From contig OZ024746.1 in the NCBI GenBank assembly GCA_964016885.1, positions 42,408,001 through 42,472,000 of the forward strand: 64,000 nucleotides of DNA. Direction: 5' to 3'. The position numbers were made by a program, and so were the translations under genes. Below the pieces are notes generated by a model, which saw only the letters and a program-made list of their open reading frames with translations, searched no databases and was not told where the DNA came from. Positions 1,547 through 47,560 of the stretch are shown in pieces. The DNA is from Eledone cirrhosa. Taxonomy: Eukaryota. Every line of letters starts with the position of its first letter. Within the stretch, counting starts at the first letter, position 1.

Positions 1547-1733
1547 TGGAATTTCTGCAGCCTCGTTGAATGCAGGAGAGGCAACTCTTTGTGAAATTTT
1601 CACATTCTCTTGATCGGAACATCAATTCAGTAACATTCGCTGTCTTCATTCCAAATACAGCTGTTAAAAGTGGGGATTCATCTAAGCAAACAATGCTATT
1701 GGCTGCTGGGGAGAGTTTCTGCAAACGTTTACC
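1547..1733 (-). CDS. Coding exon of the host minus-strand gene (last exon identified in the window)
   Basis: ttcttAG acceptor and GTAAGT donor. 187 nt, phase 0 to 1. Translates GKRLQKLSPAANSIVCLDESPLLTAVFGMKTANVTELMFRSRECENFTKSCLSCIQRGCRNS. Confidence 0.8.
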
Positions 1734-2235
1734 CTAAGAAAATAACAATATATTAAAGTAATGCAGTAAGGGAAAATTGATTCAGTAAAAGTATTTGAAA
1801 AGTTTCTATAATAAATGCTCTAGAATAGCCAGTATTTAGGAACCACTTGTAGAGAATAAAGTCAGCAGTAGAGATCAATTTATCAAAATATCATTAAGAA
1901 TGAAATCTTGGATCATAAAATTATGTAGGAAGTCTTTATGCAATGAAAGTATACAACTGAAAAGAAGTCTGTCTCAATTTCAAGGAGATCATCTTAAGCC
2001 TATGAGATATTTATTGATGTGATGCTTCCCTCTTATGATATAGCAACATTCTATTACCAATGAAATCACATCTGTGCCTGGGGAAATCTGACAAACATGT
2101 ATGCTAATTAGAAGAAATATAAATTTGCCCTGCAATTGCTAATGGTATAGAAATCCTCTCTTTCTACACATATATTGAAAGGCTAAGTTGCTAAATAATT
2201 ATACTCATGGAATGGTCATATGATGAAGTAATCAC

Positions 2236-2291
2236 CTTGTTGTCAGATAATAGTTGTGATATCCTATTAATGCAAGGGTTACAATGTTTGT
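2236..2291 (-). CDS. Probable coding exon of host gene
   Basis: catAG acceptor and AAG/GTGATT donor. 56 nt, phase 1 to 0, xKHCNPCINRISQLLSDNK. The phase matches the 1733 exon. Confidence 0.6.
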
Positions 2292-3079
2292 CTATGTATG
2301 ATTTGGTTATCATTTTTATATTCATTGTATTGTTTACAATTACAATGATCACACACATACATGCATACACATACACACACAATGTAACCTGCAAATGAAA
2401 GGAAATACAATTCGAAAAAGCAACACTAGACCTTTCCTAGCAATGATATCTGATAGTTGTTTATGAGGATGACACTGATGATAGCGGTAATAATATAAAA
2501 AATGATGATAAATCTTTTTGGAGAATTTTCAGTTTTATCTATGCTTTTATAACTTAAAACCGTATTACATTTAATATATCAAATTAATGTGTTGAAAACA
2601 GAATGACTGTAACATGATTTACGGTTGTAACACTGAACAGTTAAACCAACACTGATAATTATTGATTTTTCCCCATAACACACTTTTCACTTTAATGTAA
2701 GACAGTATATGAAAGAATAAATTCAATCGAACACACTTAGTCCAAAGAAAACAGACTCAGACATTATATTGACTTCTTAGACTGCAAACATTATACTACT
2801 TGATTGAGAATTTAAATGACTAAATCATTGTGCCAGACTACATGACCAAAGTGATTATTTGAAAGATTCGCACTGTGGGCTAAGATTTAAGGATATTACT
2901 GAACATCATACGTCAGTCTAATGGCCAACAAAAGCCTTTTAGTCAGAGTAGTTGAGATAAAAGTGTAAAATTATTCCACAGATTTAAATTACTTTTTGAA
3001 CCACATACTGGTATTATGCATTTGAAAACACATTCAATGAATTGATATGACACTAATGATGTGTGTATGTGTCAGTTAC

Positions 3080-3122
3080 TTAGAGCTGAGTAGAAAGAGG
3101 GGGCTAAAACGTCAACAATGTA
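3080..3122 (-). CDS. Possible small coding exon of host gene
   Basis: ttttgtttcAG acceptor and GTAACT donor. 43 nt, open only as phase 0 to 1 (YIVDVLAPSFYSAL). It fits the 2291 exon, but I found no upstream phase-0 donor. Confidence 0.4.
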
Positions 3123-3212
3123 CTGAAACAAAATTCCATATAAATGAAATTACTGAGAAACAGAACAGAGTTGTGAGCCAAGAACCAACAATTTATAGCA
3201 TTAAAATCTTGA

Positions 3213-3660
3213 ATCATCATCATCACCGTTTTACGTCTGTTCTTCCATGCTAGCATGGGTTAGACAGGGTGTCCTGTTGTGGGCAGTGTCCGGTTGGCTG
3301 ACCTTGTCTTGCTCATACGTGAACTGATTGGCTTGATTTCTACAGCTGGATGCCCTTCCTAACACCAACCTCATTTACAGTGAGTGCTGGGTCCTTGTTT
3401 TTTTTTTCCATGGCACCTACACGTTCATTTTACAGTGTGTACTGGGTGCTTTTTTTGCCGTGGCACCTCCACGACCACTTTGCAGTGGAATGATAGGGAC
3501 TGCAGTCCTATCATCTCATTTCTACAGCTGAGTCAACTGGAGCAATGTGAAATAAAGTGTCTTCCTCAAGGAAACAACACATCACCCGGTCTGAGAATTG
3601 AAATCACAACCTTTTGATTGCAAGCCTAATGCTCTAACCACTAAGCCATGCACCTTCACC
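3213..3660 (-). mobile_element. SINE sequence: tRNA-like head (about 3500-3660) plus a SINE body ending in an RTE-type (GAT)n tail (about 3213-3480)
   Basis: The reverse complement starts GGTGCATGGCTTAGTGGTTAG (A-box-like), followed by a decayed B-box. The tail AACCCATGCTAGCATGGAAGAACAGACGTAAAACGGTGATGATG matches the 3' ends at 7245-7290 and 18376-18430. Confidence 0.75.
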
Positions 3661-4037
3661 AATAAATCCATATATTCTCAAAATATATTAAAATAGATAA
3701 CCATATTTTAACATATATTGCAACAATATATTCAATTTATAACAGAAAAATACAAATGAAAAATTACCATCACAAGTCATTCAGTACAGATACAATTTTT
3801 GAATGCTATGATTTGAGAGAATAAGTAAAATTGTGAATCATAATAATAAGCTGTCTGTCTGCTGAGTTACTAGTTGAAATCTGTCAGATTCAATGGAAAT
3901 GTATCTTAAGATTTAAAGCTTACATTATTGTCAGTTTGTTAATGAAATCCCAAATATAGTTACTGAAGAACGTGGAGGGAAGAGATTTTGGGAAGATAAA
4001 CAATGTAGTTACAAAAAGAAAATTGAGCTTGGGTAAA

Positions 4038-4039
<2 letters not shown>

Positions 4040-4095
<56 letters not shown>

Positions 4096-4814
4096 CATAT
4101 GTAAGTATCTATAATATATACATATATATATATATATAATATATACATATATAAATATCTATAAAATATATATATATATATAATATATATAAAAAAATGC
4201 AGGGCAATAAAGATAGACGGTAGCCACGGAGTAGGCAGACCAAGAAAAACCTGGGACGACATGATAAATTCCGACCTCACACACTTACACCTCTCCAAGA
4301 GAATGTCACTGGACCGAGATCTTTGGCGGTACTCAGTAATAGAGAAGACCCGCCTTACCTAAATACAAAGTAAAACCTACTACAGTCAGTAGGCATCTCT
4401 AACAAAATACACCCCATCCCACCACCCCCACAAACCATCCACACTGCCCCTTTCAATCTAAAGTTATGTTGGTGCCACAACATCCAAGCCAAAACAAATT
4501 AGATCGTGTAGGTGTCACGACAAAAAAACACACAGTCTACGCTGTAATGTGGCCGTGTAGGCAACACGGTAAAAACCTCCCAGTCCCACACTGTAAATGT
4601 GGTTGGTGTTAGGAAGGGCATCCAGCTGTAGAAAACCCGCCAGATAGTCCTATGCGAGCAAGACAACCACTCTTGCCTCAAGTGGGAAAACTCCCGTCCA
4701 AACCCATGCAAGCGTGGAACATGGACGTTAAACGATGATGATGATAATGATGATGAATATATACATATATAAATATCTATAATATATATATATATAATAT
4801 ACATATATAAATAG

Positions 4815-4883
<69 letters not shown>

Positions 4884-5081
4884 CATATATAAATAGCTAT
4901 AATATATATATATATATAATATAAATATATATAATATATACATATATAAATACCTATAGTATATACATATATAAATACCTATAATATATACATACATATA
5001 TATATATATATAATATATACTTATATATATACATGTGTATATAAATACATATGTATATTATATATACATATATATATATAT

Positions 5082-5139
<58 letters not shown>

Positions 5140-5318
5140 TATATAATATATACATATATAAGTATCTATAATATATATATAATATATACATATAAATAAT
5201 ATATACATATATAAGTATCTATAATAAATATATATAATATATACATATATCAGTATCTATAATATATATATATAATATATACATATATAAATATCTATAA
5301 TATATATATATATTATAG
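4040..5318. repeat. (TA)n-derived complex minisatellite interrupted by an RTE 3' fragment (about 4195-4360) and an RTE-tail SINE (about 4500-4755)
   Basis: Repeated unit similar to ATATCTATAATATATATATATAATATATACATATATAA. The insert translates GSHGVGRPRKTWDDMINSDL, typical of an RTE C-terminus. Confidence 0.8.
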
Positions 5319-7287
5319 AGGCCAACCTGGAGAAGAAAGATCTGGAAGCTGAAAGACCCCTCAACCAGTAACAGATTTAAAGATATTTTACTCAACGCCT
5401 ATGACAGTAAAGAAGAACAGATATAGACATTCAATGTAGAAGAGAACTGGGAGTTCCTAAAAAATAATTTACTAGAGGCGACGGATGAGGTCTGTGGCTG
5501 GAGTAAGACCTCAAGCAGGAGGAGAGTGACTTGGTGGTGGAACAATAAGGTAGATGAGGCAGTTAAGGCCAAGAGACAGGCATGGAAAGAATGGAAGAAC
5601 GGGGGGAGCAGGGTACATTACATAGAGACCAAGAGGGAAGCTAGGCGACAAGTATACTTAGCTAGGAGGGAAGCAGAGGATAGAAAATTCAAGCATGTTT
5701 TGCAACGTGAGGACCAGAAACAGGTGTTCAAGATTGCGAGGCAGTGTGTCAGAGACAGTTTTGATGTCATTGGAGAGAAGTGTATCCGGAATGATAAAGG
5801 TGAGCTTGCCCTCACAAGTGCTGAGAAGAAAGATGCATGGAAGAGTCATTATGATAGATTACTAAATGAGGAGAATGCATGGGAAGAAGAGACCCTATCC
5901 CAAGTAGACCCTATAGAGGAGCCAGCAGTACAAGTCAGCAGCAACGTAGTAAGTAAGGCAATCAAAGATATGAAGATGGGGAAGGCAACCGGTCCATCAA
6001 GTATAGCTGCCGAGATGCTGAAGACATCTGGGTCTGTAGGTCACACTATAACCACACGTATTATTAACCAGGTAATACTAGAAGGTGTCATACCAAAAGA
6101 TTGGTGCAGTAGCATCATTGTCAACTGCTACAAAAGTAAAGGTGATGCACTAGATAGAGGAAACTATAGAGGTATAAAGCTGATGGATCAGGTCATGAAA
6201 GTAACAGAAAGAGTTATAGCACAGTTGATTAGGGACAGGGTGAAACTAGACGAGATGCAATTTGGGTTTGTACCAGGAAGAGGCACCACTGATGCCCTCT
6301 TCCTTGTGAGGCAGTTACAGGAAAAGTACCTAGCCAAAAGTAAGCCACTCTACCTGGCATTTGTCGACCTTGAGAAAGCCTTTGACAGAGTTCCACGTGC
6401 TGTAATCTGGTGGGCTCTTAGAAAACTAGGAGTAGATGAATGGCTTGTGAAAGCGGTACAAGCCATGTATAGGGGAGCAGTCAGCAAAGTTAGGATTAGC
6501 AATGAGTATAGCGAGGAATTTAGCGTACAGGTTGGGGTCCACCAGGGCTCTGTTCTTAGCCCCTCCTGTTCATCATAGTCCTGCAGGCAATAACGGAGGA
6601 GTTTAAGACCGGATGCCCATGGGAACTCCTGTATGCTGATGACCTCGCACTGATAGCTGAATCTATGGTAGAACTAGAGAATAAATTCCAAACTTGGAAG
6701 CAGGGACTAGAAACAAAGGGTCTCAAAGTCAACATGACAAAGACTAAGGTCCTTGTAAGTAGACGAGAAAACAGAACCCAGATCCCCTCAGGGAAATGGC
6801 CTTGCTCAGTATGGAGGAAAGGTGTAGGTAGGAACTCCATTCTCTGCCCCAAATGCAAACAATGGGTACACAAGAGATGTAGCGGGATCTCAGGAAGCTT
6901 AATTAAGAATGTAGGCTTCACATGCAGCAGCTGTGCTGGGACAGCAAGCAGCAAACAGCCACAGGAAACAAGTACCACCAATCTCTGGGAGGGCTCTGTA
7001 GAAATAGTAGACAGCTTCTGCTACCTAGGTGACTGAATTAGCAGCGGAGGTGGGTGTTCAGAAAGTACAATAACTAGGGTAAGAACGGGATGGAAGAAGT
7101 TTAGGGAACTACAACCACTGCTAGCTGCAAAAGGCTTCTCCCTCAGAATGAAATCAAGCTGTAGAAATCAAGCCAAATCAGTTCCTGTATGAGCAAGGCA
7201 TGGTCAGCCGACCAGACACTGCCCACAACATGACAACCCATCTAACCCATGCTAGCGTGGAAGAACGGACGTAAAACGGTGATGATG

Positions 7288-7490: not shown

Positions 7491-7794
7491 TGAATGCAAA
7501 GACCATAGGAGATTAAAAGTATAAAAGTAAAGAAGGAAGTATAATATATGTTTGAATTCTGAATAGTTGATTAAAATAACATCTTTTAATATGATAATCA
7601 TATATTTCATCTCTAGTACAGAGCAATCTATTTACATTGCACAGAATAGTTATTATATTAGTATGAGCAATGTATATTTTACATCAGATAATATTACTCT
7701 TTACAACCAATTTTGGGGCAGGTAGTAACAGTACATGATAGCTTCCTCATGTAATATCTTGCTTTTCTGATTTGAAAATATTGATTTGTCTTAC

Positions 7795-7895
7795 ATAGGC
7801 AGCTTGTCTCTTTCAGAAGTATTTCTAAATCAAAATCAGTCTGCCTATTTGGAGACCTGTCTCTTTGTTTAAACTGTAATCCTTTATTCATGGTT
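7795..7895 (-). CDS. Coding exon of host gene (acceptor secure, donor ambiguous; may extend to about 7698)
   Basis: cattgtAG acceptor with phase 2 start matching the 8671 exon. Translates TMNKGLQFKQRDRSPNRQTDFDLEILLKETSCL. A GTAAGA donor lies at 7794 (phase 1), but the frame stays open (CKTNQYFQIRKARYYMRKLSCTVTTCPKIGCKE) to a GTAATA donor at 7697 (phase 2). Confidence 0.65.
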
Positions 7896-8670
7896 CTACA
7901 ATGATTAGTCAACTTTATGATGATCATAATTCTGAACAGACAACATACCCAAGCAATGTTATAAAAATAAAACAATAATGAATCTCTAGAAATAGATTAA
8001 TTCAGTGCTATGGTTCTAGAGCCAGTGCAAACATAGTTGGTATTTGTTAGCAGAAGCAGAAACACTTCTGTCTACATTTATGACAAAAGGATTCTCTATT
8101 AAAATGCAGGTTGTAATAATACCTTTGAAAGGTGTGGTGTAGAACGTACACTTTGGAATCATCAATGAATAAAAGACTTTTGGCAATATCCCTTATTCTG
8201 TGGTATGGTAAATGATGAGGAAACAACAGACATGTTCAGTATGGAAATATATCAATACTGGGTAATCATTGGAATCAATAGGTTTTCAAAATGTGTAGCA
8301 AAACCTAAGACAGTTTAAAAAGGAACAGACACTATTTGTGCACCAGAATCATTGGTGCAACTAAAAATAAAGAATGTATATCATAGATTGCTTAAATGGT
8401 TTGTTGAGATAACACCTAAGCTGTATTATTTCTTTTAGAATAATCTAAATAGTTTGGTTATCATAATTAACGATAGTGGTAATAAAACAATATTATAGTT
8501 TTTTTGTTTTTTTTTAATGTAAATTATTTGGAATAATTTCAACAAAAGTTAAAAAGCAAAATTTAATTTTTCAGAAACATTATATAAATAAGAATAAATT
8601 TATATATTAAAATATTGTTTAATTTTGTCTTAACTAACAAATTACTGGTGGCATGAGTCATACATCTCAC

Positions 8671-8792
8671 TTGGAGGAAATGAGAGATGACAACGATGAT
8701 ACCCAGGTTAGCAGCTCATCAGAATGTGGCAGAGGAGGGACTCTAATGTGACCATGACAACCATCACCACCACTTGGGAAAGATGTGCCCTC
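8671..8792 (-). CDS. Coding exon of host gene
   Basis: tctttcAG acceptor and GTGAGA donor. 122 nt, phase 0 to 2, the only open frame: EGTSFPSGGDGCHGHIRVPPLPHSDELLTWVSSLSSLISS. Confidence 0.8.
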
Positions 8793-9136
8793 CTGAAAGA
8801 AGGGCAGGCTATTTGTGGGAAGGTTTGCTTGTTTATATCTAGATAGCAGATAAATAGCAAATACAGAATTAATTTTAGTATAAATAGTCAATATAAGATC
8901 CCACATTTGATCAGAGTTTTAGTTGTTTGTAAATACCAATAATGGAAAACAAATAATTAATATAGCAATTTTGAGTTAAGATATTCACCTGAAAATATTG
9001 GTGTCATCATTTCAAATATGCTGCTGATATAGTAAAGCTCATACATTCTTTTTATTTAGTAAATAGTTCTTTTCGGAAAGTTGTTAATAAATTTCTTTTA
9101 CCGTTATTGTAGGTAACAATTTCTTTAGCCATAGAT

Positions 9137-10015: not shown

Positions 10016-10193
10016 CTTTAATTTTGGACAAACATTATTTGTAGATCGTTTGATATATTTTTGACCATCACTATAAGACTCAGGACATTGTGGTACTGCA
10101 GGATTTTTGGAGTCACATATAACTACTGTAGCATTGGTACTTCGATTAGGATGAACTTCCAGAATCATATTGTAATAATCTGGCAGTGGATGC
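10016..10193 (-). CDS. Coding exon of host gene
   Basis: ttttctttctttaAG acceptor and GTAAGG donor. 178 nt, phase 2 to 0: HPLPDYYNMILEVHPNRSTNATVVICDSKNPAVPQCPESYSDGQKYIKRSTNNVCPKLK. Confidence 0.85.
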
Positions 10194-11478
10194 CTTAAAG
10201 AAAGAAAATCAATTGTGTTATAGGTGATAAAACCAAAATATAAGTACTTATCAGGTAACTAGGAAAAGAAAGATATTTTCAGATTAATCTTTTGGTTTTA
10301 TCATTAGAAATAATTTGTAATTTAACTATTTTAAGTCTAGTTAAATATTAAATAGAAAAATGGATATATTTTTATCATTTTTCAAATTAATAAGCTCATG
10401 TTTGGAATAATTTCAACAAAAGTCAATAAAGGAAGTATACTTTCCTAGAAGCATTTTATGAGTAAGTATAAATTTCTTTTTATTTAACTAACACTTCTTA
10501 ATATGACTGTGTGGTTCAGAAGTTGGCTTTGTAAACATATGTTTCAGGTTCAGTACATCTTTTTTTAAATCTTGTTATCTTCAAACCTTTAATGACCAAA
10601 TTTCTTATAAAATATGATTTTCTAATAATTTAGCAAATAATGAAGAACTTGGAGTGATTTACTAATAATATAAGTAACTCTCTTGTTATTAAACTATTGT
10701 CTGGAACATAACTTAACAAAGGATCTTACATAAAATTATGATGTAAGGTTTTTTAGATAAATATGAATATTTTAGAATGTTTTAGAATATAAATATTCTA
10801 AAACAAACAGCTTTGTATCATAGAACAAGGGAAAGTCTCAGGCAGTTTAGTATCAAAAGGATTAAACTAAAGGCAAAATGAGAAGTGTAACAGTTAAATG
10901 TTTTTCTTTTTATTATATCAACAAAACCATCTCTAAATGTAAATAATATAGATATAATTATAAGCCAAATAATCTGGCAAGAAAATAGAATATAAGAACT
11001 TAATTAATGGGAACATCATGAATATGAGGTTAAAAGTCTGCTTTAAGTAAAAGCGTTCTTTAAAATGAACACTTGCAGTTCAAATCTAAAACATCTTTGA
11101 AGTAACACTTCATGAGAACACAACAAAAGAATGGCTAAATATGAATTACAAACATATTTGACCTTTAGTCTATAAATGTATGCTCATGTCAGTATACAGT
11201 GATATTGCATTTCTTGTTTCTTAATATACAAAGCTAGCATTGTTTTATTTTCAATAATATTACACATTCTTTTTTTTAAATATAGAGAGATGAGTAAGAG
11301 TTGGTTTCTGTAATAGAACAAAAATATTAAATTGCTTCACTTACACTTGCTGTAGAAATGTGTATAGTTGAAAATTCCCCCCACTCTCTCTCTCTATATA
11401 TATGTTAGGTAATTCCGAAGGAAAAAAGTTCTATGTATAGAACAGAACTATTTAATTAGAAAGTGAACAACACAAAAT

Positions 11479-11560
11479 ATAACTACTCCATTACCAAAGG
11501 TTTCTGGATCCCAGACAATATTGATAAACATCTGGATCAGTCATCAGACAGAGATGTTAT
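11479..11560 (-). ncRNA. Type I hammerhead ribozyme (left palindrome arm)
   Basis: Reverse complement: AUAAC AU CUCUGU-CUGAUGA-C-UGAUCCAGAU..GUCUGGGAUCCA-GAAA-CC UUU GG-UA-AUGGAG UA GUUAU. It has the conserved core and three stems. Confidence 0.75.
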
Positions 11561-13500: not shown

Positions 13501-15349
13501 TCCATTATATATATATAATGATAATCAATGTTGGTTAATCCAAGCAATCAACCAATAATGGTGTGATCAGGTAGAAACACTCAACGTCATGGAAGCCATA
13601 AGTTATTATGTATATGGTATCAGACGGAATATCAATATTAAAAAAAGGAAGAGAGATGGAATAACATATTCAACATCAGCTTATTTCATTAAACACACAC
13701 ATACACACACACACACACAGTATCTGTATTAATGGAATCCCCCCCCCCCCCCCCCCCCCCCACACACATTAACTTCATAAGCTACCTGTTGTGTTGAATG
13801 AAGAACTGGAACAAGAGCATAGCAGAAACACTGAGGTATGTGAAAGCTATATCAAATAATATATAATGAGCAACATTAAATTTTAATTGTGGTGCTAATG
13901 GTTTCATCTAGAAGAATGTTTTGCTAAAGCATATTTCTTGGAAAGAGAAAGGCTAAGTGAAACCTAGGAAGAAATGATCTAGGCAAGACATGAATAATTC
14001 TTTTGGTTTTTGAATCTTTAAATGTTATACTAGAAATTCACTTGAAAATATATTGCAAGACTTTACTAATAATGTTTATGTAAGTTATATGAAGGTTACA
14101 ATCAGATATTGATTGCTATTGGAAATAGATAGTTGAGGGGCTAACATCAGCTGAAGTGATTAGATAGCTAGTTTGATTTTTAAATGGTCATTAGAGTAGG
14201 AGAACATTAGTGTGGGGGTTGGGGAGGACTTCACTTAAATATCTTCTGTATCGGTTAAGATGCTTATCATATGATGAAGTTAAAGTATATGCTATAGGCT
14301 GAAAGTTTAGCTAGTATATTTTCATGTCAGACAAACTGAATATTTTGCTACTGTCAGATTGATAATTCTATTTTGGATAAAAAAAATTTCAGATCAAGCA
14401 GCGTGCAAAATGTATAGAATAGAAGAATAGGATCAGAAAATAGAGGAGCGAAAATGTTAAGGAAATGTTAAATTCTTAGGGGGTCTAGCATATCTTTACA
14501 GATCTGAGGTAACGTTTTTAGGGAAAGAAAGATTATATAATCTGATAGAGATAAAAGCAAAAAATGCAGTATATCACTTCAGAATGTTGGTTTGAATGCC
14601 AAGGGAACCAATAGTGCAGAAACCAGTAGCACAGAAGCATACAATTATAATTGATTTCTCAAAATGATATATGTATTAAATAATCTAAGAAGCAGTTATT
14701 TTTTCATATCTGAAAAAATATTCTTTTATAGTTAAATAGATTTGCTTTCCTTCAAGGCTTTTACTTTTCATGCTAGAGCTAACAAATTTGGAAAAACAAT
14801 TAAGTAGTTTTACATTTTTTTTAGATTGAATGAAAACAAAAAAATATGAATGATAACTTTAGTAATTAAGAAGTTTTAAACCCTTTTAACACCAATATTT
14901 TGATTACATATTAGAGGTATAAGTTTTGTAACGTCTCTATTAAGTTCAAAAGCAGTCTTTAAATAAAGCAAATACAAAATATGTAAGTTATTTATACTGA
15001 GAAATATTATTAGTGTTAAGAGTTGTTGTTTTTAACTTCATGAAAATTATTGAGAAAACTCTACAGCCGGTTAAATACAATGCAACTTATTTAATCAAAA
15101 TTAAACATAAGTAGTTAAAAAGGAAAAGGGTAAGGGAAGGTAGTAATAACACCTCACTAATTTTTGACTCAATTTCAATATGAGAGAAAAGATCGGATTA
15201 TTGGACTGTAAAAGTCAACAGATGTTTGAATTAATCATGTTATAGTTTCCTAGAGACCACCAGAGAGTAGTGATTTATACAATGTTAACCATAGACAAAT
15301 AATCTCACAAAAACAACTGCGTAAACAGCAATAACACTAACCATGTTAA

Positions 15350-18300
15350 GGCTGTGCATGGTAGTGGGGTGGCTAGTGTGGCCATGTGTGAGAACCCCTT
15401 GACCGTTATCAAGCAACCGCACAACAGGAAAAAGAACGGGATGTCGCATCTCAGAGTTCCCACACTTAATGTTGGCGCTCTAAAAGGTAGATCTGGTGAG
15501 ATTGCAGAGATGCTGGAGAGAAAGCATGTAGATGTGTGCTGTGTGCAAGAGGTGCGATGGAGAGGTGCCTCTGAAAGACTAATCGCAGCCAAAAATCATA
15601 GTTATAAGCTTTTCTGGGTGGGTAATGATGATGAGTTAGGTGGGGTGGGCATATTACTGGCTGAGAGATGGATCAATAAGACGATAGAGGTAGTTAGAGT
15701 TAGTGATAGAATAATTAAGCTTAGGTGAGTTGTAGGCAAGAGACTACTGACAATCATCTCTGCCTATGCTCCTCAGGCAAGTAAAGAAGACAAAGACGGC
15801 TTTTATGAGCAACTTTTACAGACAGCCTCAATGACAGAGGACAGAGACATCGTTATGCTAGCAGGGGACTTCAATGGACATGTTGGACAGCTCGAGGATG
15901 GATACACTGGGGTACATGGTCGGCACATTACGGCTCAAGAAATGAAGAAGGAGTGAGGCTTCTTGAATTTTGTGATGCAAATGCACTAACCATTTGCAAC
16001 ACTAACTTCCAGAAGCCTACCAGCCACTTAATAACCTACAAATCAGGCGAGCACATAAGCCAGATTGACTTCCTGGTAGTTAGACAGCGAGACAGACGGA
16101 TGGTGTCAAATACTAAGGCTTACCCTGGGGAAGAATGTTCCCCACACATAGGTTAGTCGTTAGTGACATCTCAGTAAGCAAGAGAAAGCATACAGGAAAG
16201 TGTGGAAAAGAAAGGTCTGGAACCTAAAAGACCTTTCATTAAAATATAAATTTAGCAAAGCCCTTCAAGATGCGTACAACGATTAAGACGATTTAGAGTT
16301 ATATGACATAGATGATAACTGGAATTTCTTGCGTGACAACTTACTGCAGGCTACTGAAGAACCTTGTGGTTGGGACAGAGCTTCCACCAGACAGAGAGTG
16401 ACCTGGTGGTGGAACAGCACAGTAGATAGGGCCATTAGAGACAAAAGACTGGCATGGAAAGCTAGGAAAAATGGTGGGAGTAGCGACGGATACACAGCCG
16501 CTAAGAGAGAAGCTAGACGTCAGGTGTACTTAGCACGCAGAGAGGCTGAGAGTAGGAGGTTTGCCAATGTTCTGCGACGGGAAGATCAGAGACGCGCGGT
16601 GCCCCGCATTGCAAGGCAGTGTGTCAGTGCAAATCAGGATGTTGTTGGAGATAAGTGTGTCCTGAATGATGCCGGTGTACATAGTGTCACGAATGATCAA
16701 AAGAAGGAGGCCTGGAAATGTCATTATGAGAGACTGATGAATGTAGAGAACGAATGGGACAGAGAGGAATTTCCTCAGTAGACCTGACAGAGGGACCAGC
16801 TATTAAGATTGACGAATATAGGGTACAAGAGGCAATTAAGGAAATGAAGAATGGTAAGGCTGCTGGACCATCGGGGATAGTTGCTGAGATGCTGAAGGCT
16901 TCAGGAGAAGTAGACACTAAACTAGTTGCACGCATCATTAATCAAGCTATATATGGTGGTGTCATACCCAAAGACTGGTGCAGCAGTATTCTCATAAATT
17001 GTTACAAAGGTAAAGGGGATGCTCTGGAGAGGAGCAATTATAGGGGCATAAAGCTGATGGATCAGGTTATGAAAGTGGCAGAGAGAATATTAGAGCAACT
17101 GATTAGAGAAAGGGTCAAACTAGATGAGATGCAGTTTGGTTTTGTACCTCGGAAAAGTACAACAGATGCCCTCTTCATAGTGAGGTAACTACAAGAGAGG
17201 TTCTTAGAGAAGAATAGCTACTATATTTAGCTTTTGTTGACCTAGAGAAGACTTTTGATAGGGTATCTCGATCTGTCATCTGGTGGTCCCTAAGGAAACT
17301 AGGGGTAGAGGTATGGCTTATGAGGACAGTTCAAGCTATGTAGGGTGCTGTCAGCAAAGTGAGAATAGGAATGAAGTTTAGTGAGGAATTCCAGATACAA
17401 GTAGGTGTACATCAAGGTTCTGTCCTCAGCCCACTCTTGTTCAGTATAGTCATCCAAGCCAGAACAGAGGAGTTTAAGACTGGCTGCCCATGGGAACTTC
17501 TTTATGCTGATGATCTGGTTCTTATAGCAGAATCAGTAAAAGAGCTAGAGAATAAATTCTGGCTATGGAAACAGCAGTTGGAATCAAGAGGCCTGAGAGT
17601 GAACATAGCTAAAACAAAGGCGTTGATAAGTAGAAGAGAGGAAAATACTCTGATTCCATAAAATGTACACAATGCAGATCTTGGCTACACAAAAGGTGTA
17701 GTGGGAGGGTAGGCAAACTAACAGGTAGGGAAAACTATGTATGCAGTAGATGTACAGGGAAAGTTGGCATTTTTCCAATGCAGGTGGGTTCTATAGAAGT
17801 GGTTGATAGCTTTCGGTACCTAGGTGATCAGATTAGCATGGGAGGGGGTGTTCCAAGGCCATAGTATCTAGAATAAGGATGGGTTGGAAGAAGTTTAGGG
17901 AGCTGCTCCCTCTGTTGACAAAGTAGGGTTTCTCCCTGCGTACGAAAGGATGGTTATATGATGCCTGTGTAAGATGCACGATGCTGCATGGTAGTGAGAT
18001 ATGCGCGATGCTGCATGGCAGAAGATATGCGACTGCTGGAGAGAAATGAAGCTTGTATGCTCCGTTGGATGTGCAATGTCAATGTGCATGAACAACCAAG
18101 CATAGATGAGTTGAGAAAGAAACTGGGTATAAGAGGGATAAGTTGTGGTGTGCAGGAGAGAAGGCTGAGATGGTATGGACATGTGATGCGCATGGAGGAC
18201 GACCAATGGGTGAAGAAGTGCCAGGAAGTCCCAGTGGAGAGAAGATGCAGTAGAGGTAGATCACGAAAAACATGGGTGGAGGTGGTGAGAGCAGACCTCA

Positions 18301-18431
18301 GATCGCTGAAACTCACGGAGGAGATGACGAAGGACCGTGATGGGTGGAGAGATGCCATGCTGAATAGGACCCGTCCAACCCTTGCAAGCAAGGAAAAACG
18401 GACGTAAAATAATGATGATGATGATGATGAT
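15350..18431 (+). mobile_element. Near full-length RTE-clade LINE pseudogene (APE endonuclease plus RT) with stops and frameshifts
   Basis: APE motifs: TLNVG..CCVQEVRWRG, SAYAPQ, AGDFNGHVG, SQIDF. RT motifs: NYRGIKLMD, QFGFVP, GVHQGSVLSP, LLYADDL. C-terminus RLRWYGHVMR..RGRSRKTW, then a (GAT)n tail. Confidence 0.95.
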
Positions 18432-19331: not shown

Positions 19332-19620
19332 CTACAGTAACTCTTTAAGATATTCTGAAATGTTTGTTTCACTTCACTGTGTATATAAGAACTCCGCAAA
19401 AAATATTGATTGTCATCAGGATGGTCAATATCTACATATTCTGGGACCAAGAACACATCAGTAATACTAGCTTTCACTTGAAGCCCCGATTCCCTTTTCC
19501 AAATGAAATCCATGGCTTGCTGATTATTAGTCACATACATTGTGGTCTCAAGTTCCTTGATACTATTTAAACGCTCCACAAATACATTTCCTGATGGCAT
19601 CAGCTGTAAGCTGTTATTAT
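19332..19620 (-). CDS. Coding exon of host gene
   Basis: ttcctctttccAG acceptor and AG/GTAGGT donor. 289 nt, phase 1 to 2: DNNSLQLMPSGNVFVERLNSIKELETTMYV...QTFQNILKSYCR. Confidence 0.88.
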
Positions 19621-22038: not shown

Positions 22039-22098
22039 CTGCAACTTTTGAACAGGTTTTACCATCATACCTAATTTGATGAGTAGGAAAGGTAACAT
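22039..22098 (-). CDS. Coding exon of host gene (symmetric, 60 nt)
   Basis: ttcttttgttattacAG acceptor and G/GTATGT donor. Phase 1 to 1: DVTFPTHQIRYDGKTCSKVA. Confidence 0.8.
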
Positions 22099-23148: not shown

Positions 23149-23220
23149 CAATACATTTTCTGTTTTGGGCAGCTCGACAAGGCGTAATTTCATATTCTGT
23201 CCCCTTACATACATCACAAG
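23149..23220 (-). CDS. Coding exon: TNFR-like cysteine-rich module 2
   Basis: tgtttttgtttttatccAG-type acceptor and G/GTAAGT donor. 72 nt, phase 1 to 1: ACDVCKGTEYEITPCRAAQNRKCI. Confidence 0.88.
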
Positions 23221-24154: not shown

Positions 24155-24229
24155 CTTTACATACAACATCTTTTTTAGTCGTACAAGGTTTAACCATATA
24201 GTATCCACGTGGACAAGATGTTCGACAAA
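24155..24229 (-). CDS. Coding exon: TNFR-like cysteine-rich module 1
   Basis: tttactttcAG acceptor and G/GTAAGG donor. 75 nt, phase 1 to 1: VCRTSCPRGYYMVKPCTTKKDVVCK. It is absent from the ORF track. Confidence 0.88.
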
Positions 24230-30919: not shown

Positions 30920-31042
30920 CTTGACACTTCTGTCCATCCAAATAGTAACCCCTCTGACACCTGCATGTCATTTCTCCTTGTTGGTTGTCACAAACAGCAT
31001 AGGTAGTACATTTTGAAGGATCAGACTCACAGTCAGTAGAAT
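30920..31042 (-). CDS. Coding exon: EGF-like domain
   Basis: ttttcttacacAG acceptor and G/GTAATA donor. 123 nt, phase 1 to 1: DSTDCESDPSKCTTYAVCDNQQGEMTCRCQRGYYLDGQKCQ, spacing C-x6-C-x5-C-x8-C-x-C-x10-C. Confidence 0.92.
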
Positions 31043-39132: not shown

Positions 39133-42070
39133 TATATGTAATATCCACCTTCAATTTTTAGTCTTCTCAGTTACTGAAAATATGACTTTGGAGACTGCTG
39201 ATTAACAGGTTACTAACATTCTTATGTTACACATCAATCCTTTCAATGAATTTCACTGCAGTCTTCTGCAGTAAAGTCATTGTTGTAGCAATTAACAAAG
39301 ATTTTCAAAGGGCTTAACAGAAAAATATTTTCGTGAAATTCTATGCTTTATGAATTACATTTATATAATCATTTGCACCAGAAGGTTTCTAACTGCTTGC
39401 TCCACTGCAGAATATATACAGAAGATAAACTCAATCACCTCATCATTACTATATGTCCATAATTCTCCTTCTCCTCTATGTCAGTGACCTTAATATTATT
39501 TCTAACTAAACACACATATGTGCTGATGGAAACTACTTTTATTCTATACAAATGTCTTTACAACCACAGAGAAGATTCTCTTTTAACTGGCTATGGTAAT
39601 TATCTGTTTATAAGACCAAATCTAAAACACTAATCACCAATTACTCATATCTACATAGAAGAAACTCACAATGAATCCTTATAATTCCTATACATATTAT
39701 GTGTAAGTTTATTAACCAATACTGGGAAACCAATAAATGCAATAAAGCAAAACCTATATTAAGGAGAATGGACACACTTAAGAGCTAAAGTTACTTTCTT
39801 CCTGAAAAGACACTGACCTTTTAAAAAGACTGACTAGAATACGGCACCAAATTTGTCCCTCATGCCAACTAGTGCATCAGTCTAATTCAGAAATTATAGA
39901 TATAAACTACCTGTATGATAGGTTATCCTGAAATGCCTCTTAGTACCAATTCACTTGGTTTAATCTATGCTGAGACTCATGTAGCTCTACCTTTGTTATC
40001 TATAGTAAATATGAAAAGCAAGGTTTATCTATGCAGGAACTGTGATTTCAAAGTTGCAAATAGATGTTGTGGTGACTTGTAGCAAATAGTTTACATGCAC
40101 TGTATCTAAAATAAAGAGGTAAGTGACTTTATATAATCTGATACCTTCAGATTTATAATAGATAAATAGTTCCATTATATTAAATAGTTAATGCAATTTG
40201 TACAGTTACAGCTAAAGTGTTTGGAAAGAAATCATAAAAGCTGTAAGTGGAGATAGAAAATTGGTGTTTAGTATAGTGCAGCAGATGATATTACAACGCT
40301 TGGAAAATCTTCACAATTTACTTTAAATGTGTGAAACATTGAAAGAAACAAAGTTTTGTTGGATGAAAATCAAAAAAGCTTCCTGTGCTTTCCTTAATAA
40401 GAGGAATAAATAAAACATACTTAACACATGGTATGAGTCTTTTTTTAAAATTCTCATTTCTAATTAATATTAAATATATTCTGTAACTGACCAATTCAGT
40501 TGATAAGATGTTCAATTTTTGATGATGTCTTCAGATAAAATATTGGCATCAAAATATCATGTTTGGCACCAACTTGTCTGTGTTTAATATTTTGATGTGA
40601 AAGTGTTCATCTGCTTTAGTTGGCTGAAGTGTTAGGATGATTTTAGCATTAACTAGATAGAGAACTTTTCTCATCAGTTTTTCAAAATAGTGTTAATGCA
40701 TAAATTTCAACTTTCACGTATTGAGTGTTGATATTGTCAGCATTCTGGTCATCACTTTACATTAGATTTCTAAGAAATTGATGAAATATGATCACAATGA
40801 TGTCTCACTTGGTGTTTACACATTTTGTTATTATGCCACATTAACCATTATGGATTACACCTTCCTCCAGTTTGCTTGCAGTAATCAACCAGAAATATTT
40901 ATCAGTTCTGCACCAATATTAGAAGGTAAGGTGATCTCTTATTATATTGATTAACTCACCTACCTATATTGATTGCATTCTACGATTTTAAATGAGAGGA
41001 GTTCAAATTGCATTATATGACATGCCACTGTGAAGCAATAAAAGCTGTTTGAAATCTGTATGAGTAAAATTTTCTATGCCATAAAAGTTAGATATAATTT
41101 GCTTACATTACACACATTAATAGAAACATCCATTATATATTATTTAATCTTTGTTTCATTACAGAACTAACAAACACATGTCTCATTTCTGCTGTAACAT
41201 GAAATAATAAATTTCTCTTACATTAGTCAAGGTTACAATGGTGGTGGATAGGCAGAGTAGTTACAGTGTTAGACAAATGTTTAATAGTTTTTGATTTGGC
41301 TCATTACTTTCTGAGTTCATATTCCACCAGAATCAAATTTATCTTTCGTCCTTTCGGGGTTGATAAAACAAAATGCCAGTCAAGTACTAGGGTTATTATA
41401 ATTAACTTTCCTTTCCTGCCAAAATTGCTGGCCTTGCGCCAAAATTAGAAATCATTATTCAAGAATCATAAATGAATCAGATTCTTAAATGATTTCAATT
41501 AGAAGATTCAGCAAAAATACCACTATAAATTTCAGTTGATACCTTCATTTCCAGTTAAATGATATTTGTCACCTTTTTGCATGTTTGTAATAATACAAGG
41601 TTTGGTCTTCCCTGTTTTTCTACTAGATTTATGTTCTAGTTTTGTTATATTTTCAGGCAACATTCAATACACCCATCTTTCTATTTTAGATTGAGAAGAT
41701 TTTTTTTTGCCTAATTTTGCATTTCAGAAATTATTTCACATCCAATCAAATTCAGGGACTTCTCACTCTTGTTGGAATAACCCCTCCCTGGTTGATCTCC
41801 ACCACTTTCTGTTTGATCTTGGTCATATCAGGGGTGTAATCGTACTCACCATGCTTGGCCAATTGCAGGTTGGTGAGGCTATGTAACCTATAGTTGGGGT
41901 GGATGGCTATTGATTCTAAGGAATGCATCCTCCCTTTTTCACATCATAATTAGTAAACATCCTGAAATTCATATCTTTCATTTCAATTCCATATCTCTCA
42001 AATGCCTCATGTTTAGCAATGGACTGTATTTCTTAAATATAAAAATCAATGTCAGTGTGAATTTACTTAC

Positions 42071-42157
42071 CAACAATTCTGAAATTTGCATGCAGCGTAC
42101 TGATATTCAGAGTTAACTCAGACAGGTTCGGATGTTCGGTAAAACTTCGCACTCGAC
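42071..42157 (-). CDS. Coding exon: stalk with furin-like RRVR/S site
   Basis: tgttgtcttttAG acceptor and G/GTAAGT donor. 87 nt, open only as phase 1 to 1: (R)RVRSFTEHPNLSELTLNISTLHANFRIV. It is absent from the ORF track. Confidence 0.85.
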
Positions 42158-43051: not shown

Positions 43052-43439
43052 TATTATTTTCACAATGGTATCCTTAAAAATGGAAGGATTATTTATTCAA
43101 TTGAAACAATGACATGGTATGTTAAAAAATATGAAATGTTTGACTGATTTTAGTGTCCAAATGAACAGCAGCAATAATTATGTTACTTAATAAGTGAGTA
43201 TTTACAGAAGAAAATATGAACTGAGGTTAAATGCAATAAAATTAATACAGCTTTTTATTTAATATTACCAGGAATGTGAAAAATAAAATGATTGGTTTTG
43301 AGCTAAGAATACCTCAGGTATTTGAACTCTTGATACAAAACCGTTTTGGGTTCAATTATACACAGTTGATTATTTTAAAGTGTTTATATTTATCTACAAA
43401 CCTTCAATTATAATGTTATGTAAGAACATTCGTTAAATA

Positions 43440-44840
43440 ATATTCTAAACACCATTTTAATAATGAGAAATTTAGATATGGTACTGAATCGCTTTACATT
43501 CGTGATTATTTTCAAAATTATTTGAATATACAGACAATCCTTTAGTAAACATATGGTAAAGAAAGGGTTAAGTAGTGCTCCAATTAGTAGGAAATCTATT
43601 CAAGAGTAATTTAATATTGATTATTAATTAGTTGGAGGATGTGTCTCATTAGGATATTACAAAAAGAATGAATGATCAAACTATTGAAACTATCTGCAAG
43701 ATAATCTCAATCCTATGATGATAGAAGATTAAGAAGAAAGAATAGCTAAACAGAAATCAACATATACTTGTTGAAATTTTATTTCTACTTCTATTTAGAT
43801 GTCTGTTTAAGTTGAAACAACTGACATGCATTAAATAACAGACATTCAATAGAACATTTTAGTTATGCTTGTATTGTAAAAGGATAAGATTATATTCACT
43901 ATGATTTGGAATAGACATAGGAACAATAAGACAATGATAAAACCTTAACATTTGCTATATTGACATTTAGGATGCTTAGAAGAGAGCATAGGATGATAAC
44001 TAAACTGATTGTTTTCAGTGCAACTTCAGTTTCAGTATACAGTGAAATATCATCCAGAAGTTGTTTTGTTATAGAAAGATTATGTAAAGTGAGTATATGA
44101 AATGAATTATTTTGGTATGCTGTAAAGATAGATTTTTTTCTGAATGATAAAGACCATCACTAGTTGTCTTGGTTCAATGATTATCTCAGATTTTAAGACA
44201 CAGAATTTCTTCTAGAAAGATAATAGATTTTTTAATCCTTTTGGTACCAAACCCCTTGAAAACAATCCAATTTCTATGATACAGAGCTGAGTGTTTTAAA
44301 GTGTTTATATTTATTTAAAACCCTTCCATTGTTAAGTGGTGTGCCAAACTCCATCTTAATGAGAAAGTTAGTTATATTGCTGGCTCTCTTTAAATCCTTG
44401 ATTATTTTCAAAATTATTTGAAAATTACAGAAAGTCTTTCATTAAAATATGGTAATGAAAGGGTTAAGTAGTGCGCCAATTAATAGGAAATTTATTCAAG
44501 AGTAATTTAATATTGATTACTAATTAGCTGGATGATGTGTCTCCTTCGGATATTACAAAAGGAATGAATGATCAAACTATTGAAAGTATCTGTAAAAGAA
44601 TTCCAATCCTATGATGATATAAAATTAAGAAGAAAGAAAAGCTTAAGAAAAATAAACGTATATTTGCTGAAATTTTATTCCTAATTTTATTTAGATTTGT
44701 TAAATCGTGTTCCAAACACCAGCTTAATAATGAGAAAATTAGTTAAATTATTATATTCTTTCAAATTCTTGATTATTTTGAAAATGGTTTGGAAATTATA
44801 GACAAAGTCCTTCATTAGATATATGATAATGAGAGGATTA
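43440..44840. repeat. Old local direct duplication (about 43440-43800 vs 44340-44700, with a partial third copy to 44840)
   Basis: AAGGGTTAAGTAGTGC.CCAATTA.TAGGAAAT.TATTCAAGAGTAATTTAATATTGATTA and about 200 further bp occur twice, roughly 900 bp apart, with many substitutions. Confidence 0.8.
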
Positions 44841-46281
44841 AATCTTGTTAAATACTAAATAAAATATGCAATTATGAGTTATTGACTGGTGCTCACTTGC
44901 TACTTATTTTGTTGCTTGCAGTCTCTAGAAAGTTTCTTGAATAACTTTCAAATGCATATTTCTAATTTCTGTGAAACTGCCAACTTTATAAGCTGTTGGA
45001 GACTTATTTCTTTGTGTTTGCTAGTAGCCTTTTAAGCAGTTCAATTGGTATTTGATAAATGAAAATGTAAAAGAACTGACTTTTAAAATATATCCTGTTA
45101 TATTTCTATCATAATTTACAGATATAAAACAAAAATAAATGAAAGCCAATATGTATTAATTTAGGTATTTGGAGGATTTAAATTTTTTTAAAGTTAATGA
45201 TTAAAGCCAATTTTTATATGATGTTTCCAAACTAAAAGGAAAAAATATATATATAATTAGTTCTTATATATTTATGTAATATTTCATTTGCAGATTTAAT
45301 ATTCATTTTTTAGAAACTTAAATATTATAGTTTCATTCTTTTTCTGCATGTACTCACTGAAATGAAACCAGTTCAATAACCTAACTATAAAAAAAGATTT
45401 CCAGCTATTAAAACTTTTATCCAATAATTAATGGTAATGTCTGTCTAGGTTTGGAAAACCACCAAACTCATACCAGCATATGAAATTGTAAAACAAAAAG
45501 AAAAAACAAAAACAAACGAAAACTGCACAGTGTTCATTGCACAATTTTTTTTATCTGAACAGCTAAGGTATAATGGCTTTTATGGTATGCATACAAGCAA
45601 ATGAAAGCCAGTCTTGAAAGTAACAAGATATTGAAATAATTTGATAAAGACTTTGGAATGATTAAACAAATTTCTTGTTACAAAAAAAAAAAAAAAACTT
45701 AATATAACAGTTATGTTTGCTACTTAATAAGAATTTCTTTTGACTAGGAATAATCCTAACTTTGAAGGGTTAAGGGCCGCAACTAATAATAAACCAATAA
45801 CTGTGTTATATATAAACTAAATCTAAGATCAATGAAGTAATGGAAATATTAAAAAATAAAATTCAATTTCATCAAATGCACAACTGCCTATGAAACTGTT
45901 TGAAAAGCAACATGGGGTTCTGAAATAAAACTATGTCCAAGTTAACCATAAAAAGAAATATTTTGTAAAAATAATTTTTAAGCCATATCTTACTACTATG
46001 CTTTTGGCAGAATATTGTTGAAGGAACATTATTTATTGCAATACCTCTGACAACAAATTCTCATAAAAGATTTGCTAAATTTAAATACATATTTTTATTG
46101 TTTCAAAATCTGCTCTAGGATTATGAAATAATATCCTGATAATTTGTCTTATTTATGAAAACAGAGATAAAATAACAGTTTCCATTTAAGTTTCACTTAA
46201 GTTAGTAATGTGAGTGATATGTTAAACATTGCTATAAAATGGATATAGAAATTCAATTTAAAATGTAATGTTGAATACTAT

Positions 46282-46460
46282 AGGCAGTATCGGTAGAGAG
46301 TCGGACGCCATGCTTTCCAGCATAGTTACGTCCCTTTGCGGTCTGAGTTCAAATCCTGCCGAGGTTAACTTTGCCTTTCATCCTTACGGGGTCGATAAAA
46401 TAAAGTACCAGTAATGTAGTGGGTAATTGCTGGCCTTGTGCCAAAAGTAGAAACAATTAT
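46282..46460 (+). mobile_element. SINE family A
   Basis: Consensus match. Confidence 0.9.
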
Positions 46461-47214
46461 TACCTCCACATGCTTCATGAAACAAAGCATAAATAGTGTT
46501 ACATTTAGTCAAAAGAAGGTACTGGATTTGAGCTGCTAACTAGCATGTTATTGAGATGTTCAAAATATAAAAAACAAAACCCCCAAGAACTAATCATTTA
46601 TTAAATATATTTTGATTCAAATGCCATGTACAAATAACTTTTTTCTCTTAGCTTTTTATAGAATATCAGCCATATACTTTATATATTAATATAAAGTTCT
46701 TTGATCAATGGAATGGCTTTCTTTTTAAGTCAACATGTAAATGGCTGAGTATTCCACAGACATATTGCACCCTTTAATATAATTGACAGAGAGATTCAGC
46801 ATTACACAGAGTGTGACAAGGCTGACATTGAATTAATTACAGGTATAGTTCATCTGATGGGTTTCCAAATAGTTTCTCTTTACCCAATTTTCCCCAAACA
46901 AATCTTTGGTTGACCCACAGCTGAGGAAAAAGAGACTAACAAAAGATCTCATGATGTGGAATTAAACTGGGAATTTCACAATTGTAAAACACACTTCTGG
47001 TAATTAATCACGAAAGATATAAAACCAAGGCAGAATTTGGACTATAGGCTCTTTGGATTTGAATCCATTACTGGTTAGAATCAACTCTCACAGTAGTTAT
47101 TGTATATTAATACCCTCCACTGATAGTCTGCATCAATTCAGCTGCCACTATAAATATACATTATGGTTCAAATGAAAGGAAAATTAAATTTAAAATTAAA
47201 ATCATAATACTTAC

Positions 47215-47560
47215 GTAAGAGGGCACTTGAAGGAATGCTGACAGTGAGAACATTTGATCCACTCATTGAACAATACGCACACAAAGCTGCTGTTGCCATT
47301 GCCACAATGGACAGTGCTACCATCACAGAAGTAGGCGGAAGTAGTCTTCCAGGTCTTCGATTGCCACCACTGCGACGTTCTGCAGACCCAGAATCACACC
47401 CCGTCTCACCCCTGCTTTCTGATGTCATGGTTACGACATTCTGTCTACTCCATGATGGGTCCCTTCTATCCAAGCTCTTCCCGATACGTAGTGTCTCCTT
47501 ACCAATCTGAGTTGGAATTACATAGGGACCGTCTACTGGACCCTCATCATTATCTTCATC
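47215..47560 (-). CDS. Coding exon: N-terminal acidic/polar region plus a single hydrophobic (transmembrane or signal-anchor) segment
   Basis: tcttttctttcatAG-type acceptor and GTAAGT donor. 346 nt, phase 0 to 1, locally GC-rich: DEDNDEGPVDGPYVIPTQIGKETLRIGKSLDRRDPSW...RRPGRLLPPTSVMVALSIVAMATAALCAYCSMSGSNVLTVSIPSSALL. Confidence 0.88.

What the first reader, a model, noticed from the sequence alone, without database searches (positions are those of the whole stretch)
1547..47560. Unrecognised type II membrane protein: TM, furin-like site, EGF, two TNFR-like modules and an unknown Cys-containing ectodomain
Seen: exons 47560, 42157, 31042, 24229, 23220, 22098, 19620, 10193, 8792 and 7895 join with consistent phase and no stops (1352 nt through the 8671 exon). 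Basic residues (RRPGR) precede the only hydrophobic segment. N-glycosylation sequons (NLS, NIS, NNS, NRS, NAT, NVT, NFT) lie mostly C-terminal to it, which suggests N-in/C-out topology. Established: TNF receptors carry their Cys-rich domains N-terminal to the membrane anchor, whereas type II topology with a furin stalk is typical of TNF ligands such as EDA, APRIL and BAFF. Inference: this is a ligand-like chassis carrying receptor-like modules, possibly a shed signalling or decoy protein of an uncharacterised invertebrate family.
Basis: partly seen in the sequence, partly recalled or inferred. Interest (0 to 1): 0.75.

Follow-up and report, generated by a model that had tools for sequence, protein, structure and literature searches.

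The report
Fusogen-fold multipass membrane protein family
This octopus gene encodes a large protein with six hydrophobic, predicted membrane-spanning segments, shared with sea anemones, worms and molluscs, whose outer part is predicted to resemble the membrane-fusion proteins of viruses and gametes, so it may be an unrecognised animal cell-fusion protein.

Summary
Eight of the ten named exons plus exon 1733-1547 are right; exons 8792 and 7895 are not. Seven more exons lie beyond the window. The 16-exon model gives 1611 aa without stops, 97% identical to Octopus LOC115209230/LOC106874729. It has six hydrophobic segments, so it is not a single-pass type II or shed protein. The first segment ends in a conserved signal-peptidase-type motif (16 of 18 homologs); the furin site is weak and mollusc-only. 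Homologs, all unnamed, occur in Nematostella, nemerteans, annelids, brachiopods, flatworms and molluscs. An AlphaFold2 model of the unknown ectodomain (pLDDT 84-97 in its core) matches class II fusion proteins by Foldseek (39 of 44 PDB rows; E about 1e-3; viral library 7e-6) and EFF-1 over 258 residues (Z 9.5, rmsd 19.6). There is no sequence-level support, the model lacks the first 120 ectodomain residues, and trimers were not tested. Best reading: a fusexin-like ectodomain, capped by EGF/TNFR modules, on a five-helix membrane module with prominin-like topology. Fold about 70% likely, fusion activity about 40-45%.

The parts
47215..47560 (-). Exon: N-terminal region (predicted cytosolic) and hydrophobic segment TM1; model residues 1-115
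   Evidence: AG/GT, 95% identical to P0001 22-142
47270..47326 (-). TM1, ending in a (-3,-1) signal-peptidase-type motif at about 47284-47276; likely a cleaved internal signal
   Evidence: hydropathy; motif 14-17 aa before a conserved Pro in 16 of 18 homologs; cleavage inferred
42071..42157 (-). Exon: RRVR|S (minimal furin motif, spans the junction) and linker; residues 116-144
30920..31042 (-). Exon: EGF domain; residues 145-185
   Evidence: Pfam EGF_3 E 1.3e-6
24155..24229 (-). Exon: first four-Cys TNFR-type module; residues 186-210
   Evidence: Pfam TNFR_c6 E 1.4e-7, two stretches
23149..23220 (-). Exon: second four-Cys TNFR-type module; residues 211-234
22039..22098 (-). Exon: linker; residues 235-254
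   Evidence: 100% identical to P0001 256-275
19332..19620 (-). Exon: start of the unknown ectodomain; inferred first domain-I strands of a fusexin-like fold; residues 255-350
   Evidence: conserved alternating hydrophobic pattern in 24 full-length rows; not inside the folded model, so the assignment is inferred from EFF-1 residue 138 aligning with P0001 418
10016..10193 (-). Exon: ectodomain, Cys-containing strands; residues 351-410
   Evidence: covered by one 3.0-6.0 kb contig in each of 4 of 4 runs laid
1547..1733 (-). Exon: Cys-rich helical insertion with a conserved amphipathic helix (inferred domain-II tip); residues 411-472. The gene continues outside the window: seven exons in G000:C6:42403612-42385607 carrying the rest of the ectodomain, the Ig-like membrane-proximal domain and TM2-TM6

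Best explanation
The gene encodes a six-segment membrane glycoprotein whose large ectodomain is predicted to have a class II fusion-protein (fusexin-like) fold, and it likely acts at cell surfaces to attach and merge membranes. Proposed working: TM1 inserts N-in and is likely cut by signal peptidase (inferred), giving a mature N-out chain: small beta linker, EGF, two TNFR-type modules, a roughly 570-residue fusexin-like rod (domains I/II and an Ig-like domain III at P0001 745-842), a flexible stem, then five membrane helices in a 2+2+1 pattern with two long extracellular helical loops. EGF/TNFR modules would supply recognition or hold the rod in a pre-fusion state; the five-helix module would anchor it and may shape the membrane. 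Shown: gene structure, conservation, hydrophobic segments, the alternating glycosylation/Cys pattern. Predicted: the fold (about 0.7). Inferred and untested: cleavage, trimer formation, fusion activity, tissue.
For: Gene: 16 exons, 1611 aa, no stops, 97% identity to Octopus models; exon-sized database fragments pile up at the same intron positions (of 120 fragments, 33 end at profile column 755, 26 at 1175-1180, 28 start at 555); contigs in 2 of 4 runs extend 4.1 and 4.6 kb on the 3' side of exon 10193, enough for the 3.6 kb of remaining coding sequence. Topology: in 10 aligned homologs invariant Cys lie only in loops 1, 3, 5 (29, 1, 3) and sequons are 7-15, 2-6, 0-2 there against 0-1 in loops 2, 4, 6. 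Signal-type TM1: motif in 16 of 18, best control windows 8 of 18 (TM3) and 10 of 17 (TM5); precedent in IGSF1 and astrotactins (PMC5841168 passages, 10.1101/493858 abstract). Fold: AF2 with 132 rows, pLDDT 84-97 for model 141-440; Foldseek PDB: 39 of 44 listed rows are flavivirus E, alphavirus, hanta/phlebovirus glycoproteins, EFF-1 or Fsx1, best E 6.7e-4, 280-430 columns; viral library: best E 7.2e-6, the top 8 rows are bunya-, flavi- and alphavirus glycoproteins; VIA against 48,161 chains: EFF-1 4ojc_A Z 9.5, 258 aligned, model 20-444 on chain 138-504, the only one of 50 rows spanning the ectodomain. Domain order (beta-rich rod, Ig-like domain, stem, TM) agrees with the fusexin definition (PMC8784728 passages); archaeal Fsx1 also has several C-terminal TMs (PMC9259645 passages).
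Against: The EFF-1 superposition has rmsd 19.6 A and Foldseek rmsd is 16-38 A with E only near 1e-3; the tool warns Z 7-8 is typical background. The Ig-like domain alone matches Brr2 and glycosidase domains as well or better (Z 9.8-10.8) than EFF-1 domain III (Z 9.5, rmsd 2.5, 90 aligned). Multi-domain herpesvirus proteins reach E 4e-4 in the viral library and myomesin E 1.2e-3 in PDB, so tandem beta-sandwiches can score similarly. No sequence support: no fusexin family in Pfam scans (0 of 22 ectodomain fragments; 0 of 27), none among the 60 shown of 71 PDB profile hits, and the profile comparison with two HAP2-like ORFs was at background (probability 0.4%, reversed control 0.2%, TM control 0.5%). 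The model omits P0001 277-398, pTM is 0.41, and the first, shallow model gave no fusexin hit. A fold shows no function; no expression or functional data were found.
Confidence: 0.45

Rival explanations
1. The ectodomain has the fusexin-like fold but has lost or never had fusion activity; the protein is an adhesion molecule or receptor in which the rod presents the EGF/TNFR modules and the five-helix module signals or organises the membrane.
For: Same fold evidence; N-terminal EGF/TNFR modules and a large Cys-rich insertion are unlike known fusexins; molluscan tails carry a conserved Ser-rich ESG motif (12 of 24 rows by pattern); single conserved gene with conserved introns.
Against: A conserved amphipathic helix lies in the inferred tip region (position 458 aromatic in 24 of 24, 454 large hydrophobic in 22 of 24); it could equally be buried, which was not checked.
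Confidence: 0.27
2. The fusexin resemblance is a false match of beta-rich domains; the protein is a prominin/tweety-like five-helix membrane-shaping protein with an unrelated multi-domain ectodomain.
For: 2+2+1 pattern with long helical extracellular loops; ESM Atlas feature hits to clusters with Prominin (14% of members, 0.82) and Tweety (26%, 0.81), lead-level only; high rmsd of the fusexin matches.
Against: No Prominin, Tweety or DC_STAMP Pfam hit in 38 membrane-module fragments or 27 long homologs; loop sizes break the prominin definition; the genome has separate Prominin-matching loci on C12 and C2; two libraries independently rank class II proteins first.
Confidence: 0.22
3. One reading: single-pass type II, TNF-ligand-like protein shed by furin as a soluble signal or decoy.
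For: TM1 is N-in/C-out with RRVR|S downstream in molluscs; a short isoform ending at the in-frame stop of the 8792 segment cannot be excluded.
Against: Five more membrane segments; exons 8792/7895 absent from all homolog models; optimal furin motif 0 of 18; no TNF homology domain.
Confidence: 0.03

Closest known systems
Fusexins: C. elegans EFF-1 (PDB 4OJC), HAP2/GCS1, archaeal Fsx1, viral class II proteins (dengue E, alphavirus E1, bunyavirus Gc)
   Same: Predicted beta-rich ectodomain of similar size ending in an Ig-like domain, stem and membrane anchor; ranked first by Foldseek in two libraries and colinear with EFF-1 138-504.
   Different: No detectable sequence similarity; N-terminal EGF and TNFR-type modules; about 100-residue Cys-rich helical insertion; five-helix membrane module with about 270- and 145-residue extracellular loops instead of 1-3 TMs; trimer and fusion untested.
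Prominin and Tweety (TTYH) pentaspan proteins
   Same: Five segments in a 2+2+1 pattern, N-out/C-in, two helical extracellular loops (definitions from PMC11405016 and PMC8273234 passages).
   Different: Intracellular loops median 44 and 119 aa (prominin under 25), extracellular loops median 266 and 143 aa (prominin over 300); no Pfam match; 750-aa N-terminal ectodomain.
IGSF1 and astrotactins
   Same: Long bivalve, cnidarian, nemertean and brachiopod forms have signal peptide, small ectodomain, TM0, cytosolic loop and a second TM with a signal-peptidase-type end, the layout in which these proteins are cut by signal peptidase.
   Different: Only the maturation logic is shared; domains differ; octopod models lack the signal peptide and TM0 part.
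TNFRSF / TNFSF
   Same: Two TNFR-type Cys modules (Pfam TNFR_c6).
   Different: No TM within 80-120 aa C-terminal of the modules (next TM is about 620 aa away), no death domain, no TNF homology domain.

Membership tests
Fusexin superfamily | Three beta-rich domains: beta-barrel DI, elongated DII, Ig-like DIII | tested here: inconclusive
   Foldseek and VIA rank class II proteins first over the ectodomain, but rmsd is high, E is modest, and the model lacks residues 277-398. Strand order could not be inspected: coordinates are not returned.
Fusexin superfamily | Ig-like domain III followed by stem and C-terminal TM anchor | tested here: met
   Seven-strand sandwich at P0001 745-842, pLDDT 84-96, Z 9.5 / rmsd 2.5 / 90 aligned to EFF-1 406-504; low-confidence linker then TM2. 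Not specific on its own.
Fusexin superfamily | Post-fusion homotrimer | not tested
Fusexin superfamily | Membrane-fusion activity | not testable with these tools
   Needs cell or liposome assays.
HAP2/GCS1 (PF10699) | Profile match | tested here: not met
   Genome search hits two other loci, not this one; no Pfam hit in homologs; hhalign at background.
EFF/AFF (PF14884) | Profile match | tested here: not met
   No Pfam hit in 22 ectodomain fragments or 27 long homologs. The genome search rang nowhere, controls included, so it says nothing on absence.
Prominin | Five TMs in a 2+2+1 pattern | tested here: met
   TM2-TM6 by hydropathy and the AF2 model.
Prominin | Extracellular loops over 300 aa, intracellular loops under 25 aa, homology to prominins (PMC11405016) | tested here: not met
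   Medians 266/143 and 44/119 aa; PF05478 does not match this locus or 38 fragments.
Tweety / prominin fold | Structural superposition of the membrane module | tested here: inconclusive
   Not listed in the top rows, which other domains filled; the module was not folded alone.
TNFSF ligands | Single N-terminal TM and C-terminal TNF homology domain (10.1101/2024.07.27.603686 passages) | tested here: not met
   Six segments; no TNF Pfam or PDB sequence match.
TNFRSF receptors | Type I, TM within 80-120 aa of the cysteine-rich domains (same preprint) | tested here: not met
   Modules end at P0001 254, TM2 starts at 873.

The most novel reading that the evidence does not exclude
A third, ancient family of animal fusexins, distinct from HAP2 and EFF/AFF and kept from cnidarians to cephalopods, in which the fusogen is fused to its own recognition modules and to a prominin-like membrane-bending module; a candidate gamete or somatic cell fusogen for molluscs, annelids and brachiopods.
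Probability: 0.4. Interest if true: 0.93.

Novelty: new variant of a known kind. Interest (0 to 1): 0.8.

Why it matters
Known cellular fusexins are HAP2/GCS1, the FF family (EFF-1/AFF-1) and archaeal Fsx1 (PMC8784728 and PMC9259645 passages). A conserved, intron-rich animal gene family with this fold and a multipass anchor would be a new branch, and would give a concrete gene to test for cell or gamete fusion in molluscs and other spiralians, where to my recollection the fusogen is not known. Even without fusion activity it would be a large, ancient, wholly unannotated surface-protein family with an unusual internal-signal maturation.

Tried and rejected
Exons 8792 and 7895: rejected on frame and homology; in addition, contig depth over 7682-7963 was zero in 4 of 4 runs and over 8669-8809 zero in 3 of 4 (2.97 in the fourth), and no listed piece of the long contigs lies there, but the piece table was cut, run types are guesses and lack of cover is weak. 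Signal peptide/TM0 exons in the octopod: none found in 236 kb upstream with a 7-row bivalve profile (best E 0.16); not proof of loss. Second paralog: none in 314 kb around the gene; a genome search with the Lingula paralog gave only two EGF matches under a strict first look. First AF2 model (9 rows, pLDDT 47) gave only generic helical and Ig matches. ESM Atlas: no usable hit for residues 256-870. Profile comparison with HAP2-like ORFs: background. Trimer prediction: tool not available. The maximum-likelihood tree did not finish; the FastTree version has long branches meeting, so deep splits are not relied on. Literature: two accession searches found 0 papers; six term searches listed nothing describing this family, judged from listings only. 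The octopus optic-lobe marker 'tnfr' (10.1101/2022.06.11.495763 passages) could not be tied to this gene: the one held supplement of PMC9815951 had no match and the preprint's supplements were not seen. Three look-ups of earlier scan findings returned nothing.
Full report
Setting. The window is G000:C6:42408001-42472000 of a 3.0-Gb genome. Exon 19620 finds one database protein, Octopus sinensis LOC115209230 (P0001, 1639 aa, 93% identical), whose cluster holds O. bimaculoides, O. vulgaris and Argonauta models, all uncharacterised.

Observation. The gene runs on past the window: 16 exons from window 47560 to C6:42385607 give 1611 codons without a stop, 97% identical to the Octopus proteins, 95% to Argonauta and 29-32% to eight bivalve proteins. 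Small 5' exons lie 163 and about 187 kb upstream and encode no hydrophobic segment. One long contig in each of 4 of 4 runs covers exon 10193-10016 exactly and goes on for 1.5, 2.0, 4.1 and 4.6 kb on the 3' side (the runs' RNA status is a guess). Among 120 exon-sized database fragments, ends cluster at the profile columns of this gene's introns.

Topology. There are six hydrophobic segments (model residues 79, 845, 916, 1214, 1355, 1529). In 10 aligned proteins, invariant cysteines occur only in loops 1, 3 and 5, and sequons almost only there, which fixes an alternating N-in topology. The ectodomain is therefore tethered at its C-terminal end and cannot be shed by a cut near TM1. The optimal furin consensus occurs in 0 of 18 homologs with an intact TM1 region (6 of 24 rows were dropped because their 5' models lack TM1); the minimal RxxR occurs in 13 of 18, of which 12 are molluscs, and lies in a strand-like pattern that other phyla keep without arginines. 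TM1 instead ends in a small-x-small motif 14-17 residues before a conserved proline in 16 of 18, against at best 8 of 18 and 10 of 17 after the other two inward-out segments. The (-3,-1) rule is recalled knowledge and no SignalP run was possible, so cleavage is inferred. Long forms in oysters, mussels, scallop, Nematostella, Tubulanus and Lingula add a signal peptide, a domain of about 100-120 residues and one more TM before a cytosolic loop, the layout of IGSF1 and astrotactins, which signal peptidase cuts at the second TM (PMC5841168 passages; 10.1101/493858 abstract).

Family. A HMMER search with P0001 399-1591 found 196 representatives at E up to 0.001, of which 150 were listed. Of 10 distant ones looked up, 8 carry names: Nucella, Tubulanus (two), Owenia (two), Lingula, Nematostella and Paragonimus, all uncharacterised or hypothetical. 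The two Tubulanus and the two Owenia genes share a contig length and are probably neighbours. Pfam finds only EGF and TNFR_c6 families above cut-off. No vertebrate or ecdysozoan name appeared, but only 16 clusters outside octopods were looked up, so the range is not settled.

Fold. With 132 aligned rows AlphaFold2 gave mean pLDDT 74.8, 84-97 over model residues 141-440 (P0001 539-838), pTM 0.41. Foldseek on PDB returned 44 rows, 39 of them class II fusion proteins (dengue, Zika and yellow fever E, alphavirus glycoproteins, hanta/phlebovirus Gc, EFF-1, Fsx1), best E 6.7e-4; the other five were myomesin and glycosidases. The viral library gave 43 matches at E up to 0.001, led by bunya-, flavi- and alphavirus glycoproteins (best 7.2e-6), with multi-domain herpesvirus proteins from rank 20. 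VIA against 48,161 chains listed EFF-1 at Z 9.5 with 258 residues aligned, P0001 418-842 on EFF-1 138-504, rmsd 19.6; 47 of the other 49 rows matched only the Ig-like domain and two the helical part. The large rmsd may reflect domain III being folded back in the EFF-1 trimer and extended in the model, but I could not check this. Against: no sequence-level signal in Pfam, PDB or hhalign, the Ig-like match is generic, and no unrelated beta-rich protein was run as a control.

Membrane module. TM2-TM6 have the 2+2+1 pattern of prominin and Tweety and long helical extracellular loops, but the loop sizes fail the prominin definition (PMC11405016 passages), Pfam does not match, and the Atlas hits are leads only. 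It works like a pentaspan scaffold at most; membership is not shown.

Mechanism. Most likely the mature protein is an N-out surface protein with a fusexin-like rod that attaches to and merges membranes, with EGF/TNFR modules for recognition or restraint and the five-helix module as anchor and membrane organiser (0.45). A non-fusing adhesion or receptor role with the same fold is next (0.27), then a false fold match (0.22); the shed-ligand reading is nearly excluded (0.03).

Novelty. The records exist only as uncharacterised gene models; accession searches found no paper and six term searches listed none on this family (listings only). Papers used: passages of PMC6828804, PMC11405016, PMC8273234, PMC5841168, PMC8784728, PMC9259645, 10.1101/2024.07.27.603686 and 10.1101/2022.06.11.495763; abstract and outline of 10.1101/493858; one supplement search of PMC9815951. 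Verdict: new variant of a known kind, interest 0.8.

Noticed in passing
G000:C1061:17454-18803 (L026) and G000:C13:13990029-13991387 (L027): Two intronless HAP2-GCS1 (PF10699) matches, E 1e-24 and 1.8e-21, 62% identical to each other, inside open frames of 4179 and 869 aa; possibly envelope-like genes of a mobile or viral element rather than a spliced host HAP2. Context not examined.
   Followed up: partly
G000:C12:37.89-37.98 Mb and G000:C2:219.59-219.64 Mb: Two multi-exon Prominin (PF05478) loci, separate from this gene.
   Followed up: no
window 5427-7036 (+), 15303-18407 (+), 52143-53162 (-): Broken reverse-transcriptase ORFs of LINE-like retrotransposons in the introns, recognised by eye from the translations.
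   Followed up: no
window 47561 to G000:C6:42618215: The intron upstream of exon 47560 is about 163 kb; the gene spans at least 257 kb, with alternative first exons near C6:42642126-42642430 that are 89-96% identical to O. sinensis at protein level.
   Followed up: partly
window 41750-41935 (-): A GC-richer, coding-like stretch of about 60 codons just after exon 42157, with no match to the family; perhaps a retrocopy or transposon fragment.
   Followed up: no
P0064/P0163 (Tubulanus) and P0065/P0211 (Owenia): Two divergent paralogs of the family apparently on one contig in each species, suggesting an old linked pair that might act as a heteromer; no second copy was found near the octopod gene.
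   Followed up: partly
window 11473-11514 (+) and 12655-12614 (-): The same short sequence on opposite strands about 1.1 kb apart, i.e. an inverted duplication in the intron.
   Followed up: no
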